This document shows, piece after piece, positions 6,001 to 15,000 of a stretch of 63,977 nt of DNA; positions within the stretch are counted from its first letter, which is position 1, and each line of letters opens with the position of its first letter. This DNA comes from Pocillopora damicornis (lineage: Eukaryota): NCBI RefSeq assembly GCF_003704095.1, contig NW_020845264.1, forward strand, positions 868,001 to 931,977, given 5' to 3'. The position numbers are program-made.

Positions 6001-9000
6001 CATTACTGATTGAACAGTGCTTCTATTGTCACTTGAATACCACCACTCTATGAATTTAAGTGAAAACACAGCAATAGGAAGACCATTGGCTAACAATGAT
6101 GATAGCAGCCTTGTAACTGAGCATGGAATGGCCAGTATCTGTTTAACCATAGTCTGTCTGTAAGGAACTGTAGGAAGACTTCTCTGCAGATTGTGCACGA
6201 CAATGTCTCGTTGTGTGAATCTTTGTAAAGAGATTCCCACAATATGAAGTAAAGGAGAGTGAACGCCAGAGACTCTAAAGATATACAGCATGTAATAACA
6301 CAAAAAGATCGATTCCCACGCGCAATGCAAGAAGGGATACAAGTAAATAAATATTCTCTTGAGGTGCAGAAAATACAACCGCTTCCTGGCTGGATGGGAG
6401 GACAATGAACCAGTAACATACTCTTCTCTTAATCTTTCAAACAGCTGATCAAGTTTAAGTTTAGCATATGGAAGTACCACTAACATTAATAAAGACAAAT
6501 ATCTCTGCAAACTTGATAGTTTATCATCGGCATTGTTATTAGGGGTTCTGCTAACTCTTTTGAGCCCATAAAAATGTTCAGATATTGAACCTTCAAAGTT
6601 CCTTAAATAGTGACTCTGGAGAATATATTCTAAACATAGGTGAAGTTCGTCTCCGAAACGCCAAATCCAGCCCCATCTGTCAGGATTAGAACTTGCCAGC
6701 ACTTTCAACGCATAAATAACAGCCGGTCTTAGCACTGATGCCATAGATTCTTGGGCGACTATCTCAAATATTGTTGGTTGAGCGTTCAAAGTGCCTTGGT
6801 TCAAATGGGCTGCAAATTCCGCCATATTGAAGTTAGAGCGACTGGGTAACCAGGTGACTTCAAAAGACCGAGTAACCGAGAAGTAACCGAGTGAGTCGAT
6901 GATGTGTTGATGGAGCGAAAGGCAGGGCACTTGACAAAGTCTGTGCAAGAGATTGCTGGATCTTTGTTCTGGATAAAGGTAAAAATTTCCTTTTAACTTT
7001 TTGTTCTATCTCTGTAATTCTTCAGTCTCATCGAATGGTTTGTGTCGTAGCTGAGCTAGTCTCGGAATTTCAAGTGCAACCAAGATTACTGATATCTCAA
7101 ACGAATTACGGTCGTTCCGCTGACGACCAGTTCGCTTACCTCTCATGAGACATAAGCGAACCGATCATAGGTCGTTTCGTTAACGTTTTATGATAAATTT
7201 TTAATTCCTCGAACCCTTACCGATTTTAGGGTTACTGACTCAACTGAAAATATCTCTTTCTAGCCCTGGTACCCACATTCATTACAGGATCACATTGTTT
7301 ACTAATACAGTCGAACCTGTCTTAACCCTTTACACCCTAGCATCAGTATGCATATTCTCCATACTGCTCTTTATACATTTCCTAAGGTGCTGAAAAGGAG
7401 AATTTGTTTACCAATCAAAAGCTTCTTTCATTGGTGATCATTTCCTTTATTCTCATGACCAAAACGTGTGATTCAGGGGTGATACTGTAGGGAGAAATTT
7501 GATGCTAGTCACTCTTAGGGTTTAAAGGGTTAAGCAGTCAACCAGGGGGAATGACCACTTAATACAGGTTGACCGCTAATGCAGGTTCCACAGAATAGGA
7601 GTATTATATATAAAAACCATAAGAGATGCCATGTTTTGCCATAATTGACCACAAAAGCTTGGTTAAAAAATACTACTTGCTTAGGGTCAGGTGAAGAGAT
7701 AAAGAGATAAAGATGGATTTAATTTCACTTAAAATATTATTCTTAGTTCTATTAGAGTGGTTGTACTTCAAGTGACCATACTATAAAGGTGGAAAACAAT
7801 ACAAACAGGCCATTGGGACTTAGTAAAGGGTGACCACAACCGCTTTATAGAGGTGACTGCTCAATAGAGTGTAAATTACAGTGATAAAGGGGAAGCAATT
7901 GGTGGATTTTGAAAATGTACCACTTAATGCAGGGTGATGGCTTAATACAGAGGTGTTTAATACAGGTTTGACTGTATACATTACTGTTTAGGCAGGAGAT
8001 TAATAGAGAAAACTTTTCTTTACCTGCAACCTGCTTCTGCATGGTTGTATCATTGAAAATATAATTGATGACAGAAAGTAGATTCAATGCCCCACATTTT
8101 GATGAGTGTCACAACAACACTACATCTGGACAATAGGAACAGTAACAATTAAATTCTGTTCGTAGTCCTATGTGAATATCTTCAATTCTCACACATTAGC
8201 TCTGATTTCTTTTAGGTTGTAGGAATAGGAAATGATGGCGTAGGGAAGACCTGCCTTGTCAAGAACTTTTGTGAGAAAAAGGTATATCAACAAGTTTCCT
8301 TGTTTGCAGAAGAACTGCACTAACTTAAACTTCCAGAGAAGACAAAATTGGTTCTTATCCAAGGAAAATCATCTTGTTTGAGTTAGTTGGGGGTTTGAGT
8401 TGACTGACTTGGGTTAATGAGGTTCTGCTGTATATAATCACGTTCTGTAAAACCATTTACAATATATGATAAACTATACATCTTTATAATTTTATTCAGT
8501 TTTCATTTGATGGAAAAACATGTGCACAACAGGAAAAACTACAGACTTTGTGTTCATGAACAGCAGCTTCAAAACTGATCTCAGTAAGAATCCTTTCACT
8601 TCTGTTTCCTCTCTTTAGTTTTCAAAAAGTTACCACCCAACTGTAGGAGTTGATTATGGTGAGTTAAAACTCCTTCTTAACCCAGTCTTTTTGGCTTGTT
8701 TATATATTTATTAATGATATTCAGACAGTGTGGCCCAGTTCAGCTGTATAAACAATAACTAGAATGTCTAGTAAAGGCAGCACATTCTTCTCAATTACTT
8801 CAAGACCCTGAGTGTTGGTCTGCTCTGGGACTTGAATTCTTGATTTGAGCTAGTATGAGCTATATTTCACCAAGCATGGTTGTATCATAATGAGTATATG
8901 ATCTTCATATTTTTTATAATTGTCTAGGCTTCAAGCTGCACAAAGTCAACAACATTGACTGTAAGTAAACCAACTCTATTGTGTTTCTGATATCTCACAG

Positions 9001-12000: not shown

Positions 12001-15000
12001 TAGTGCTGAGCAAAGTTCAAGTAAACATAAATAAAACAAATCAACAAGAATGAGTCCTGTAAATAACATATTTATTTGTTTAACACTATAGTACTACATC
12101 TCATTGTATTGTCACTATAAAACCTGCTCTAAAATGACAACAAAACCTTTGAACAAAAACTACTCAGAAACTTCACACCCTTTAAAGCTTAATTTTTACA
12201 GTTGTTTCTGTTGAGAAATATTTGTAGGAAGGTCTTCAGCATGAAATGATGTGCTATGTACATTAACTGGGAAGAGTTCAAATACATCAAATAATAACAA
12301 AAAATTTAAATCATCTTAGCCTATAAGTAGAGCAATGTAGTTTTTGTTTTCCTTTTTGGACTCAATATCTCATTAACATTGTTTGACAGATAAACTGTTG
12401 CTAAAAAGTAGAGGACTAACATGGTTTGGTTTCTTTGATTACTAAACAGAGGTATTGGTCTGTGAATGGACTAAAAGTATGATTTCCTACAAACCATGAT
12501 TTATATTCAGGCATGTACAATAAATACTGTGTCTGTGACTGTCTGTTGAGCCTTGCCCCCAAATGAGAAATCAAAATGATGAAAATAACAAATCATTTCC
12601 ACTGCCTATCACAAATTTCATTTGACTTCTTATATTAAACAACATTTCACAAGTCCATCTACTACTATCCAGCAGAACAGGAGCAACTTATCGTTTCATA
12701 GTAAAAATTATTTTCGTTAGATATAATCTCATAGCTATGGAGGAGATAAAGAGTGTTCATTGCTATCTTGTCTGTGTTTCCTTTTTCTCTTTTTAGTCCT
12801 GGGTTCATAAGCATCACTCTCAGTTTGCTTTCTCTTCTTTCTACTCTTTTTACTCTTCTTTCTTTGCTGCACAATTTTTATTGGTAGAAAGAGAAAAAGA
12901 AACATTTTTTAAATGTAAATACCTCAAGGCACTTGTGATTATAATTCTCTAGAAAAACTACAGGAGGTGATCAAAATTACAGCCAAACCTGCGTTAAGCT
13001 GCACCTTAATTAGGCATCACCCTGTGTATTATGCAGTTGTTTTTCAAACTCCTGGTCACCCTGCTAATCCCTATGGATGATCACTTACCACTGTGTGACA
13101 GTTTCAACTGTAATTTGTGCTGTTTAAACTTCTCCTCACAATATCCATACATTATCCAGCAAACAGATAATAAGAATACACAAAATTATCAGCCAGAGGA
13201 AAGAGTTGACAATTCAGATCATGGGAGTGAAAGAGTTTACCAGTGGCACAATTATTTATCTGTGATTATGTCTCTTCAATCTTTCTTTAACCGTTTAGCT
13301 CCCACAAGTGACCAAGACATAATTTCTCGTTACAATATCAATACAATGTCAACCAGATATGTGATGAGAATGAAGAAAAATTTCGATTTGGGGATAATTA
13401 GTTGACCCAATAATAAATTATCTGAACTAACATTCTAAGAATTGCATGGTTGACAAGAGAATTACAAATTTGATCTGGGAGTTAAAGGGTTAATACATTT
13501 TTAAAAATTTTGTTTAAAAAAAATTGGAGAGGTGTTGTTGTGAAAGTTAAACCAGTGAGCTGTCCTTATCTCACAGACTTCCTCTCTTTCCCAAAATGTA
13601 ATCATATGGTTACCATAACTTGAAGGACAGACCTTATATTCCTCCTCTGATTCACTGTTATCAGAAGTTGACATTGATGAGGAAGATGAAGAAGGACGCT
13701 TAAACCAAAGCAAGAAAAGAAGCTTTCTTTAGTTGAGAGGAAATATTTTCAATTGGTAATTATCATAATAAAATGTCATGTCAAATGTAAGATCATCATG
13801 TTTCCTTTTAACTACAAAAAATGCAAATATAGCTCTCTTTTTTGTGTCCCAAACCCTGGGGGTACTTTGGTCACTTTTTGGTGGCTATGTACCACTGGCC
13901 TCTGAGAACACATACCCCATTATAGTTTATTCTGTGGCCAATTATAGACCCCATCTGGTGCCATTTTGCACAACCACAACCCTCCCCCCCCTTGTGCTAA
14001 AATCATCAGGTCACCTCCTTGACTGTTAAGCCTCCAANNNNNNNNNNNNNNNNNNNNNNNNNNNNNNNNNNNNNNNNNNNNNNNNNNNNNNNNNNNNNNN
14101 NNNNNNNNNNNNNNNNNNNNNNNNNNNNNNNNNNNNNTAAACACAGGTAGCTGGATTCACAAGCAGGGGACTGATAGGTTGGGAGGGGGGAACTTAAGAA
14201 TGGATATCATTTTTAAACACAGGTGGATGGACTTACAACCAGGGGACTGAAAAGTGGGGGGAATTATGGTGGAATGTGATTTTTTTTTTTTTACAGATAG
14301 CTGGGCCCATAAGTGGGAGGCTGATAGGTGGGGGGCAAAACTTAAGATCAGATGTGATACTTTTTTCACAGGTAAATTTACTTGTAGCAGGAGGACTGAT
14401 AAGTGGAGGGGGGGACTTAAAATCAGAAGGTAACTTCAAATCAGATTCAATTTTATTTTATAGGCAGATTTGCCTATAACTGGGGACTGATGACTGCAGG
14501 GGGGCAGGGGAACTTAGGATCTGATGTAATTTTTTTTATAGATAGATGGGCCTATAACCAGGGAACAGATAAGTGGGGGGGGCTTATAAGTAGAAGTTAG
14601 CGGTATTTTATTTTTGTTTTGACTGGTTAAGACATATCTTAAAAGCTTCAATTGTTAGAATGCTAAACATTGTGTACAAACCTCTTTTCTTCTAGTCTTG
14701 GAAGAACCTTCTGAACTGCCTAACAGCTTTTCTCTGTTTTTCTTTAGTTCATTTCTAAATTTCTGAGAATCAGTAATAAACAAGGATTTTAATAGACTCA
14801 AATATATTATTACATTTGAAATGTTCCAGGGCAGATAAAAAGTAATTTTGTTATGTTTCAAAATGCCATACCTGGTTTAGATGTTCCTCATAGGCTGCTA
14901 GAGTCTCTGAACCTGTCTTCTTTTTGTTAATCATTTCTTTAACTTCTTCCCTGCATTTTATTTAAGTTGCACAAACATGAGTATAAATGTTGATCAAGAC

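What the first reader, a model, noticed from the sequence alone, without database searches (positions are those of the whole stretch)
6910..12034. J-domain-less RJL-family GTPase in an animal
Seen: the 204-aa GTPase has G3 WDFGGH (catalytic Gln replaced by His), no CaaX/CC tail, and stops right after the G domain, with AATAAA at the stop and no J-domain exon before the FAM133 3' end. Known: animal RBJ/DNAJC27 carries a C-terminal J domain, J-less RJL is typical of flagellated protists, and the family has been linked to the flagellar apparatus. Inference: this is a retained ancestral J-less paralog or a secondary loss, probably GTPase-deficient and ciliary.
Basis: partly seen in the sequence, partly recalled or inferred. 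Interest (0 to 1): 0.65.

Follow-up and report, generated by a model that had tools for sequence, protein, structure and literature searches.

The report
J-less RJL-type small GTPase gene
This is an intact eight-exon gene for a small RJL-family GTPase that lacks the chaperone-recruiting J domain; the same J-less gene sits beside the normal J-containing one in many marine invertebrates, so it is real but not unusual.

Summary
Eight AG/GT-bounded exons (6910-12034, + strand) encode 204 residues: P-loop GNDGVGKT, G3 WDFGGH, no C-terminal Cys, and a stop overlapped by AATAAA.

I searched the model exon by exon and did not join the exons. The exon 6 search returned a 206-aa database protein (P0001) from a 1474-nt contig. 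It matches 199 of 201 whole codons in order and ends at the same residue, which supports the splicing and the J-less end.

No J domain lies downstream: 0 of 112 + strand ORFs hit Pfam DnaJ, and there is no HPD tripeptide.

The nearest solved structure is Xenopus Rbj (138 bits, against 104 for Rab23). In a 90-row tree the protein falls in a 100/99 clade of J-less animal proteins, inside an RJL-like group split 100/100 from the sampled Rabs.

The gene is not rare. Named orthologues occur in sea anemones, a soft coral, echinoderms, molluscs and an annelid. Eleven of those species also list a canonical J-containing DNAJC27.

It is therefore a separate paralogue. Whether it is an old paralogue or an RBJ duplicate that lost its J domain is unresolved (AU p 0.33). 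GTPase deficiency is a reasonable inference. A ciliary role is untested.

The parts
6826..6909 (.). 84-nt interval between the ATG of the PEX12-like gene (- strand, 6825) and the ATG of the GTPase (+ strand, 6910). It is a presumed shared bidirectional promoter. It holds three GTAACC hexamers (6846, 6872, 6883) and an X-box-like GTAACCAGGTGAC at 6846-6858.
   Evidence: The X-box consensus is recalled, not taken from a tool. 8 of 103 600-nt tiles of the window have a hit at one mismatch or fewer, so this is a weak lead only.
6910..6978 (+). Exon 1: start codon and the N-terminal extension MERKAGHLTKSVQEIAGSLFWIK, which is conserved across phyla.
   Evidence: 22 of 23 residues equal P0001. The extension is conserved in the orthologues. 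The fold model puts a short helix at 12-19 with modest confidence.
8216..8281 (+). Exon 2: beta1, P-loop GNDGVGKT and alpha1.
   Evidence: Ras and Roc partial hits; 22 of 22 residues equal P0001.
8619..8658 (+). Exon 3: switch I (YHPTVGVDY). It ends in phase 1.
   Evidence: 13 of 13.
8928..8960 (+). Exon 4: beta2 (FKLHKVNNID).
   Evidence: 10 of 10.
9747..9823 (+). Exon 5: beta3 and switch II, with G3 WDFGGH.
   Evidence: 25 of 25.
9907..10026 (+). Exon 6: beta4, alpha3, beta5 and the NK of G4.
   Evidence: Ras, 24.6 bits; 40 of 40.
11009..11079 (+). Exon 7: the TD of G4 (NKTD) and alpha4.
   Evidence: 22 of 23.
11896..12034 (+). Exon 8: G5 ETSAA, alpha5, a short Cys-free tail and the TAA stop (12032-12034). 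AATAAA at 12030-12035 overlaps the stop.
   Evidence: 45 of 45. It ends at the same residue as P0001.

Best explanation
The locus is a complete, expressed gene for a J-domain-less paralogue of the RJL/RBJ (DNAJC27) family of Ras-superfamily GTPases. It is orthologous to the roughly 190-240-aa proteins auto-named 'DNAJC27-like' (some 'Rab-13-like') in sea anemones, a soft coral, echinoderms, molluscs and an annelid.

Shown: the gene structure, family placement, absence of a J domain, absence of a prenylation signal, and coexistence with a canonical J-containing DNAJC27 in related species.

Inferred mechanism: the protein binds guanine nucleotide, because G1 to G5 are intact. It hydrolyses GTP poorly on its own, because Asp replaces the Ras-Gly12 residue and His replaces the Ras-Gln61 residue. 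It would therefore sit mostly GTP-bound, as Xenopus Rbj does. It is not lipid-anchored, and it cannot recruit Hsp70 because it has no J domain. It would then act as a soluble, largely 'on' adaptor whose partners are read through switch I/II and the conserved 22-residue N-terminal extension. Any switching off would need a GAP that supplies the catalytic residue in trans, or turnover of the protein.

The stated confidence blends about 0.9 for the identity with about 0.5 for the mechanism.
For: Gene model:
- Eight AG/GT exons give 204 codons.
- Exon by exon, 199 of 201 whole codons equal P0001 in unbroken order, positions 3-206, with the same end.
- P0001 came from the exon 6 search and sits on a 1474-nt contig. 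That is too short to hold the 5.1-kb intron-bearing locus, so I infer it is cDNA-like.

Family placement:
- The best solved relative of P0001 is Xenopus Rbj 6jmg (138.4 bits, E 2e-39). Rab23 is next at 104 bits.
- A profile of 27 clade members gives 6jmg 187 bits against Rab30 158 bits.
- Foldseek with the model (pLDDT 79.6) also ranks 6jmg first (E 4e-17).
- In the scan of 1.84 billion representatives, the best single-domain hits have RJL-type G3 motifs and no CC tail. The top ranks overall were multi-domain tandem GTPases.

Tree of 90 rows and 173 columns:
- J-less animal clade, 100/99.
- Canonical DNAJC27 clade, 97/88.
- All RJL-like rows against the 11 Rab rows, 100/100.

J domain:
- 0 of 89 listed relatives of P0001 carry PF00226, whereas all 120 listed relatives of a canonical RBJ carry it.
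- Pfam finds only Ras-type domains in 5 of 5 clade members scanned.
- Nothing was found downstream in the window.

Both genes are listed for Nematostella vectensis, Actinia tenebrosa, Ruditapes philippinarum, Dreissena polymorpha, Solemya velum, Pinctada imbricata, Diadema setosum, Sinanodonta woodiana, Biomphalaria glabrata, Gigantopelta aegis and Haliotis rubra.

Mechanism: in xRbj, His75 and the non-Gly P-loop residues A25/E26 account for the missing GTPase activity, and changing them back raises it (PMC6776491, whole text).
Against: - No biochemical or expression data exist for this protein or any orthologue in what I could search.
- The residue at the Gln61 position varies among orthologues (H, N, D, S, Q, G, A, R). 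Starfish keep Gln, so 'GTP-locked' may not hold for the whole clade.
- In the window protein the two residues after His are Thr-Asp, not the Pro-Phe that stiffen switch II in xRbj.
- Exon 6 alone matches Rab6 better than Rbj.
- Percent identity to Rabs (36-39%) is close to that to RBJ-type representatives (38-44%). Family placement therefore rests on bit scores and the tree.
- The tree's outgroup is only 11 Rab-like rows picked from the top hits. No IFT27, RABL2, Ran, Ras or Rho rows were available.
- NCBI auto-names five orthologues 'Rab-13-like'.
Confidence: 0.7

Rival explanations
1. Origin rival. The J-less gene is a duplicate of the already J-fused RBJ gene. It lost its J-domain exon(s) early in animal evolution and then diverged fast. 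It would not be an older J-less paralogue predating the fusion.
For: The AU test does not reject a tree that joins the J-less clade with the J-containing clade (log-likelihood 6.8 lower, p 0.33). The stem of the J-less clade is long (0.5 changes per column), which can pull a clade towards the base. All named members are animals. The N-terminal '...SL-x-IKV' lead-in is shared with Rbj.
Against: The free careful tree puts the J-less clade as sister to a 44-row group (93/91) that holds RBJ together with 25 unnamed RJL-like rows, including J-less forms and forms with an N-terminal J domain.
Confidence: 0.4
2. It is an ordinary or divergent Rab (for example 'Rab-13-like') and not an RJL-family member.
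For: NCBI auto-names for orthologues in Dendronephthya, two Haliotis species and Gigantopelta are 'Rab-13-like'. Exon 6 alone scores best against Rab6. Pfam sees only the generic Ras family. The Atlas feature search returned generic small-GTPase clusters.
Against: There is no C-terminal Cys, so no prenylation signal. The G3 Gln is replaced. Rbj beats every Rab in the PDB by 34 bits for the single protein and 29 bits for the profile. The clade is split 100/100 from the sampled Rab rows.
Confidence: 0.07
3. It is a canonical DNAJC27 whose J-domain exon was missed, because it is hidden in the assembly gap, used only in an alternative isoform, or lost by mis-assembly.
For: An N run lies at 14038-14137 downstream and was not read. 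The Nematostella orthologue is labelled 'isoform X2'.
Against: The stop falls at the same place as in P0001, and within about 40 residues of the G domain's end in all 29 rows aligned except one 309-aa row that carries a Pfam DAN domain. A separate canonical DNAJC27 exists in Nematostella and Actinia. A convergent gene on the other strand ends about 700 nt downstream. 0 of 112 downstream ORFs hit DnaJ. The Nematostella isoform differs at its N-terminus, not at its C-terminus.
Confidence: 0.03

Closest known systems
RBJ / DNAJC27 (for example Xenopus laevis Rbj, PDB 6jmg)
   Same: It is the best sequence and fold match for the G domain. His sits at the Ras-Gln61 position and the P-loop has a non-Gly residue at the Ras-Gly12 position. 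There is no prenylation signal. The '...SL-x-IKV' lead-in to beta1 is shared.
   Different: There is no C-terminal J domain or HPD loop. The protein falls outside the RBJ clade (97/88). It lacks the 5-residue insertion Rbj has before beta5 (alignment). Thr-Asp follows the His instead of Pro-Phe. It coexists with a true DNAJC27 in 11 named species.
J-less RJL proteins of protists (Rjl subfamily; for example the Trypanosoma cruzi TcRjl cited in PMC4736243)
   Same: The architecture is a G domain alone, with the G3 Gln replaced and no lipid-anchor motif. These are the family criteria of Nepomuceno-Silva et al. 2004, as quoted in PMC1550239 (passages read).
   Different: The window protein belongs to a clade whose named members are all animals (100/99). 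That clade has its own conserved N-terminal extension and does not nest among the other unnamed RJL-like representatives. The taxa of those representatives are unknown to me.
RefSeq 'dnaJ homolog subfamily C member 27-like' J-less proteins (for example Actinia tenebrosa P0171, Exaiptasia diaphana P0172, Acanthaster planci P0017, Crassostrea angulata P0180)
   Same: They are orthologues, 48-68% identical over nearly the full length, with the same length class, the same N-terminal extension and no J domain.
   Different: The residue at the catalytic-Gln position differs: N in the two sea anemones, Q in starfish, S in most molluscs. The window's closest relatives (P0011 at 89%, P0012 at 80%) are unnamed records.

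Membership tests
RJL family (criteria of Nepomuceno-Silva et al. 2004, as quoted in PMC1550239) | The canonical Gln of the third GTP-binding motif is substituted. | tested here: met
   G3 is WDFGGH in exon 5.
RJL family | The DTAGQE motif is altered. | tested here: met
   The window has DFGGHT in place of DTAGQE.
RJL family | About 37-40% identity to other RJL proteins. | tested here: met
   P0001 is 38-44% identical to RBJ-type representatives (P0049 42%, P0064 43%, P0072 38%) and 39% to xRbj in the fold alignment. This is weakly discriminating, because some Rabs reach 36-39%.
RJL family | No C-terminal prenylation motif. | tested here: met
   The last exon contains no Cys and the tail ends ...SSSKHK.
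RJL family | Groups with RJL/RBJ and not with Rab or other Ras-superfamily branches. | tested here: met
   The RJL-like rows split 100/100 from 11 Rab-like rows. Rbj is the top PDB hit by 29-34 bits. Caveat: no IFT27, RABL2, Ran, Ras or Rho rows were in the tree, and none of these appears among the best 60 PDB rows shown.
RBJ / DNAJC27 subfamily | A C-terminal DnaJ (J) domain with an HPD loop. | tested here: not met
   Pfam finds no DnaJ in P0001 or four other clade members. No HPD and no DnaJ hit lie downstream in the window.
RBJ / DNAJC27 subfamily | Falls inside the clade of J-containing DNAJC27 orthologues. | tested here: not met
   The 19 named DNAJC27 rows form a clade (97/88) that excludes it. 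A sister relationship is not rejected (AU p 0.33).
Rab family | C-terminal Cys motif for geranylgeranylation and a catalytic Gln in WDTAGQE. | tested here: not met
   Both are absent. The sampled Rabs carry both.
Ciliary small GTPases (IFT27, RABL2 and the like) | Orthology to IFT27 or RABL2, or ciliary localisation or expression. | not tested
   No named IFT27 or RABL2 sequence was on hand for a tree. Expression and localisation cannot be tested here. The only lead is the X-box-like motif.

The most novel reading that the evidence does not exclude
Animals ancestrally had two RJL-family genes. One is the J-fused RBJ. The other is an older J-less lineage with its own conserved N-terminal extension. 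The second survives in cnidarians, echinoderms, molluscs and annelids but was lost in vertebrates and ecdysozoans. It works as a mostly GTP-bound, non-lipidated adaptor under RFX-type (ciliary) transcriptional control. It would then be the animal counterpart of the protist flagellar Rjl and would separate the G-domain function of the family from its Hsp70-recruiting function.
Probability: 0.2. Interest if true: 0.5.

Novelty: new member of a known kind. Interest (0 to 1): 0.3.

Why it matters
The function of the RJL/RBJ family is still unsettled. It has been proposed to be flagellar from its phyletic pattern, yet human RBJ was reported as nuclear (PMC4736243, passages read). A natural J-less paralogue that coexists with the J-fused one in tractable animals such as Nematostella offers a way to ask what the G domain does without the J domain. 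This window itself only adds one more orthologue to a set already present in public annotation.

Tried and rejected
- Exon-only searches. Pfam on six exon translations gave only partial Ras/Roc hits, for 2 of 6. Exon 6 against the PDB ranked Rab6 first and Rbj 28th. Single exons are too short to place the family.
I replaced it with 112 stop-free ORFs.
- The representative scan's top ranks were multi-domain tandem GTPases, which pile up score. I used single-domain rows only.
- The Atlas feature search with P0001 gave generic small-GTPase clusters from several domains of life and no family resolution. For the downstream Lys/Ser-rich ORF its best score was 0.77, below the useful range.
- Elias & Archibald 2009 and Nepomuceno-Silva et al. 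2004 are not held (for the former). I know them only through what PMC4017328, PMC1550239, PMC4736243 and PMC6776491 say of them.
- A J-less animal RJL paralogue was not found in print. The searches were (0 papers hold RJL + Nematostella + GTPase). This does not cover the two unheld primary papers or any supplements, which were closed.
- The search for DNAJC27 + cilia (listing only) showed nothing bearing on this gene.
- I considered and rejected a pseudogene reading. The ORF is intact, the splice sites are canonical, and 24 columns are invariant across 27 orthologues.
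Full report
What is there. Reading the + strand between 6910 and 12034 gives eight exons: 6910-6978, 8216-8281, 8619-8658, 8928-8960, 9747-9823, 9907-10026, 11009-11079 and 11896-12034. Every internal boundary is AG...GT. The total is 615 nt, that is 204 codons plus TAA. An in-frame TGA lies five codons upstream of the ATG. The per-exon translations carry a full set of G motifs: P-loop GNDGVGKT, switch I Thr in YHPTVGVDY, G3 WDFGGH, G4 NK|TD across exons 6 and 7, and G5 ETSAA. The tail has no Cys and ends ...SSSKHK. AATAAA at 12030-12035 overlaps the stop, and further signals lie at 12519 and 12634.

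How the spliced model was handled. Single exons are too short to place the family. Pfam saw partial Ras/Roc matches for 2 of 6 exon translations. Exon 6 alone ranked Rab6 above Rbj in the PDB. The exon 6 search of the large protein collection returned P0001, a 206-aa protein on a 1474-nt contig. Compared exon by exon, 199 of 201 whole codons of the window equal P0001, in unbroken order from its residue 3 to its last residue 206. Only the three codons split by introns were left uncompared. A 1474-nt contig cannot hold the 5.1-kb intron-bearing locus, so I infer it is transcript-derived. It confirms all seven splice junctions and the J-less end. From there on I used P0001 by its id as a stand-in for the product. 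The window is not human. Its nearest named relatives are anthozoan cnidarians.

No J domain in reach. No + frame between 12035 and 20740 contains the tripeptide HPD. 0 of 112 stop-free + strand ORFs of at least 24 aa in that stretch hit Pfam DnaJ at E up to 1. ORFs touching the N run at 14038-14137 were dropped, so that 100-nt gap is unread. tblastn with the canonical DNAJC27 proteins of Nematostella, Actinia and Montipora placed their J domains only at 2781-2894. That site lies in a separate single-ORF gene upstream (1944-3035, +) with TM2 and DnaJ domains. A PEX12-like gene on the other strand separates it from the GTPase. A convergent Lys/Ser-rich gene ends about 700 nt downstream of the GTPase stop. 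Its FAM133 identity rests on my recall alone, because Pfam and the Atlas gave nothing.

Which family. Against all PDB sequences, P0001 hits Xenopus Rbj (6jmg) at 138.4 bits and Rab23 next at 104. A profile of 27 clade members gives Rbj 187 bits and Rab30 158. An AlphaFold model built on that alignment (pLDDT 79.6) is a plain G fold with a short N-terminal helix at residues 12-19. Foldseek again ranks 6jmg first (E 4e-17), though Rab8 and other Rabs follow closely. In the scan of 1.84 billion representatives, the top ranks were tandem multi-GTPase proteins. The best single-domain hits had RJL-type G3 motifs (WD-x-x-G followed by H, D, S, N or others) and no CC tail, while ordinary Rabs with WDTAGQE and CC tails ranked lower. 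The four RJL criteria of Nepomuceno-Silva et al. 2004, as quoted in PMC1550239 (passages read), are all met: Gln replaced, DTAGQE altered, about 37-40% identity, and no prenylation motif.

The gene is not rare. The search with P0001 listed 89 proteins at E up to 1e-20, and none carries PF00226. Named J-less relatives of about 166-253 aa occur in these groups:
- Anthozoans: Actinia tenebrosa (68% identity), Exaiptasia diaphana (67%), Nematostella vectensis (73% over 85% of the query) and Dendronephthya gigantea.
- Echinoderms: Amphiura, Diadema, Acanthaster and Asterias.
- Molluscs: Crassostrea, Sinanodonta, Solemya, Pinctada, Haliotis, Dreissena, Mactra, Ruditapes, Gigantopelta, Elysia, Mytilus, Mya and Biomphalaria.
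- An annelid: Paralvinella.

Most are auto-named 'dnaJ homolog subfamily C member 27-like', and some 'Rab-13-like'. They share an N-terminal extension with the consensus MDR-x-x-GHL-x-K...SL-x-WIKV. The search with a canonical RBJ (P0072) listed 120 proteins, all with PF00226. Eleven species appear in both lists: Nematostella vectensis, Actinia tenebrosa, Ruditapes philippinarum, Dreissena polymorpha, Solemya velum, Pinctada imbricata, Diadema setosum, Sinanodonta woodiana, Biomphalaria glabrata, Gigantopelta aegis and Haliotis rubra. The J-less gene is therefore a paralogue that lives beside DNAJC27, not a DNAJC27 that lost its J domain in one lineage. No vertebrate, arthropod or nematode member appeared. 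That search depends on shared words, so the absence is weak evidence.

Tree. The tree had 90 rows cut to the G domain: 26 J-less animal proteins, 19 named J-containing DNAJC27, 34 unnamed RJL-like representatives and 11 Rab-like rows. It kept 173 columns and was built with IQ-TREE under LG+C20+F+G4.
- The J-less animal rows plus four unnamed rows form a clade at 100/99.
- The named DNAJC27 rows form a clade at 97/88.
- With five unnamed rows that carry a C-terminal J domain, that clade has 98/95.
- All RJL-like rows split from the Rab rows at 100/100.
- The J-less clade is sister to a 44-row group (93/91) that holds DNAJC27 and 25 other RJL-like rows, among them forms with an N-terminal J domain.

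The tree has limits. The Rab rows were picked from high-scoring hits. No IFT27, RABL2, Ran, Ras or Rho rows were on hand. Four rows have long branches. An AU test that holds the J-less clade and the J-containing clade together costs 6.8 log-likelihood units, with p 0.33.

How it probably works. Shown: the nucleotide-binding motifs are intact, there is no lipid-anchor signal, and there is no J domain. Inferred: poor intrinsic GTP hydrolysis. In Xenopus Rbj the His at the Ras-Gln61 position points away from the gamma-phosphate. The non-Gly residues at the Gly12/Gly13 positions close the site, and changing these residues back raises activity (PMC6776491, whole text read). The window protein has His at the same G3 position and Asp at the Gly12 position. 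Against a simple transfer of this result, the two residues after His are Thr-Asp rather than Pro-Phe. Across orthologues the G3 residue is H, N, D, S, Q, G, A or R. A clade that tolerates almost any residue there either does not depend on intrinsic hydrolysis or uses a GAP that brings the catalytic residue. I commit to a mostly GTP-bound, soluble adaptor that signals through its switch regions and the conserved N-terminal extension, without Hsp70 recruitment. I give this mechanism a probability of about 0.5.

Ciliary link. The family-level proposal rests on a phyletic pattern (Elias & Archibald 2009). That paper is not held, and I know it through PMC4736243, PMC4017328 and PMC13393502 (passages read). 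PMC4736243 calls the ciliary status of RJL/RBJ uncertain. I could not test expression or localisation. One lead comes from the 84-nt interval between the ATGs of the PEX12-like gene and the GTPase. It holds GTAACCAGGTGAC at 6846-6858, one mismatch from the RFX X-box consensus as I recall it, and three of the window's eleven GTAACC hexamers. Only 8 of 103 600-nt tiles of the window have such a hit. The test was post hoc, the consensus is recalled, and the promoter is shared with a peroxisomal gene, so I count it as a lead only.

Novelty and verdict. The gene is an ordinary orthologue of a conserved, already auto-annotated J-less paralogue, so this is a new member of a known kind. I found no paper describing a J-less animal RJL paralogue. 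The two primary RJL papers and all supplements were out of reach, so I do not claim it is undescribed. I score interest at about 0.3.

Noticed in passing
window 1944-3035 (+): A single 363-codon ORF with an N-terminal TM2 domain (E 7e-12) and a C-terminal DnaJ domain (E 3e-22). By recall it is DNAJC22/wurst-like. It is the only J domain in reach of the GTPase, but it is a separate upstream gene.
   Followed up: partly
window 4942-6825 (-): A PEX12-like gene with a Pex2_Pex12 N-terminal region (E 1e-35) in a 294-codon first exon and a C3HC4 RING exon at 4942-5196. It lies head to head with the GTPase, with only 84 nt between the two ATGs.
   Followed up: partly
window 7321-7531, 9283-9491 (+ orientation); 10821-10950, 11660-11848 (inverted): Four copies of an interspersed repeat of about 210 nt (75-88% alike) sit in introns 1, 4, 6 and 7 of the GTPase gene. 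It is probably a SINE- or MITE-like element.
   Followed up: no
window 12738-12908, 13504-13728, 14658-14876 (-): A convergent Lys/Ser-rich gene whose last coding ORF ends about 700 nt from the GTPase stop. It resembles FAM133 only by recall. Pfam found 0 families for two ORFs, and the Atlas best score was 0.77.
   Followed up: partly
window 20737-21495 (+): A 253-codon open stretch ending in an SH3 domain (E 3e-13). It is an exon of the next + strand gene.
   Followed up: no
window 14038-14137 and 26911-27010: Two 100-nt N runs. The first lies inside the convergent downstream gene.
   Followed up: no
P0072 (EukProt record Nk52), P0068, P0092, P0106: P0072 has a C-terminal J domain and branches at the base of the animal DNAJC27 clade. 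If Nk52 is a nucleariid, as I recall, the C-terminal fusion is older than Holozoa, the range given in PMC4017328's summary of Elias & Archibald 2009. P0068, P0092 and P0106 carry the HPD loop at the N-terminus instead.
   Followed up: no
P0200 (EukProt, 309 aa): A J-less clade member is fused in its gene model to a C-terminal Cys-rich region that carries Pfam DAN (PF03045). It is probably a merged gene prediction.
   Followed up: no
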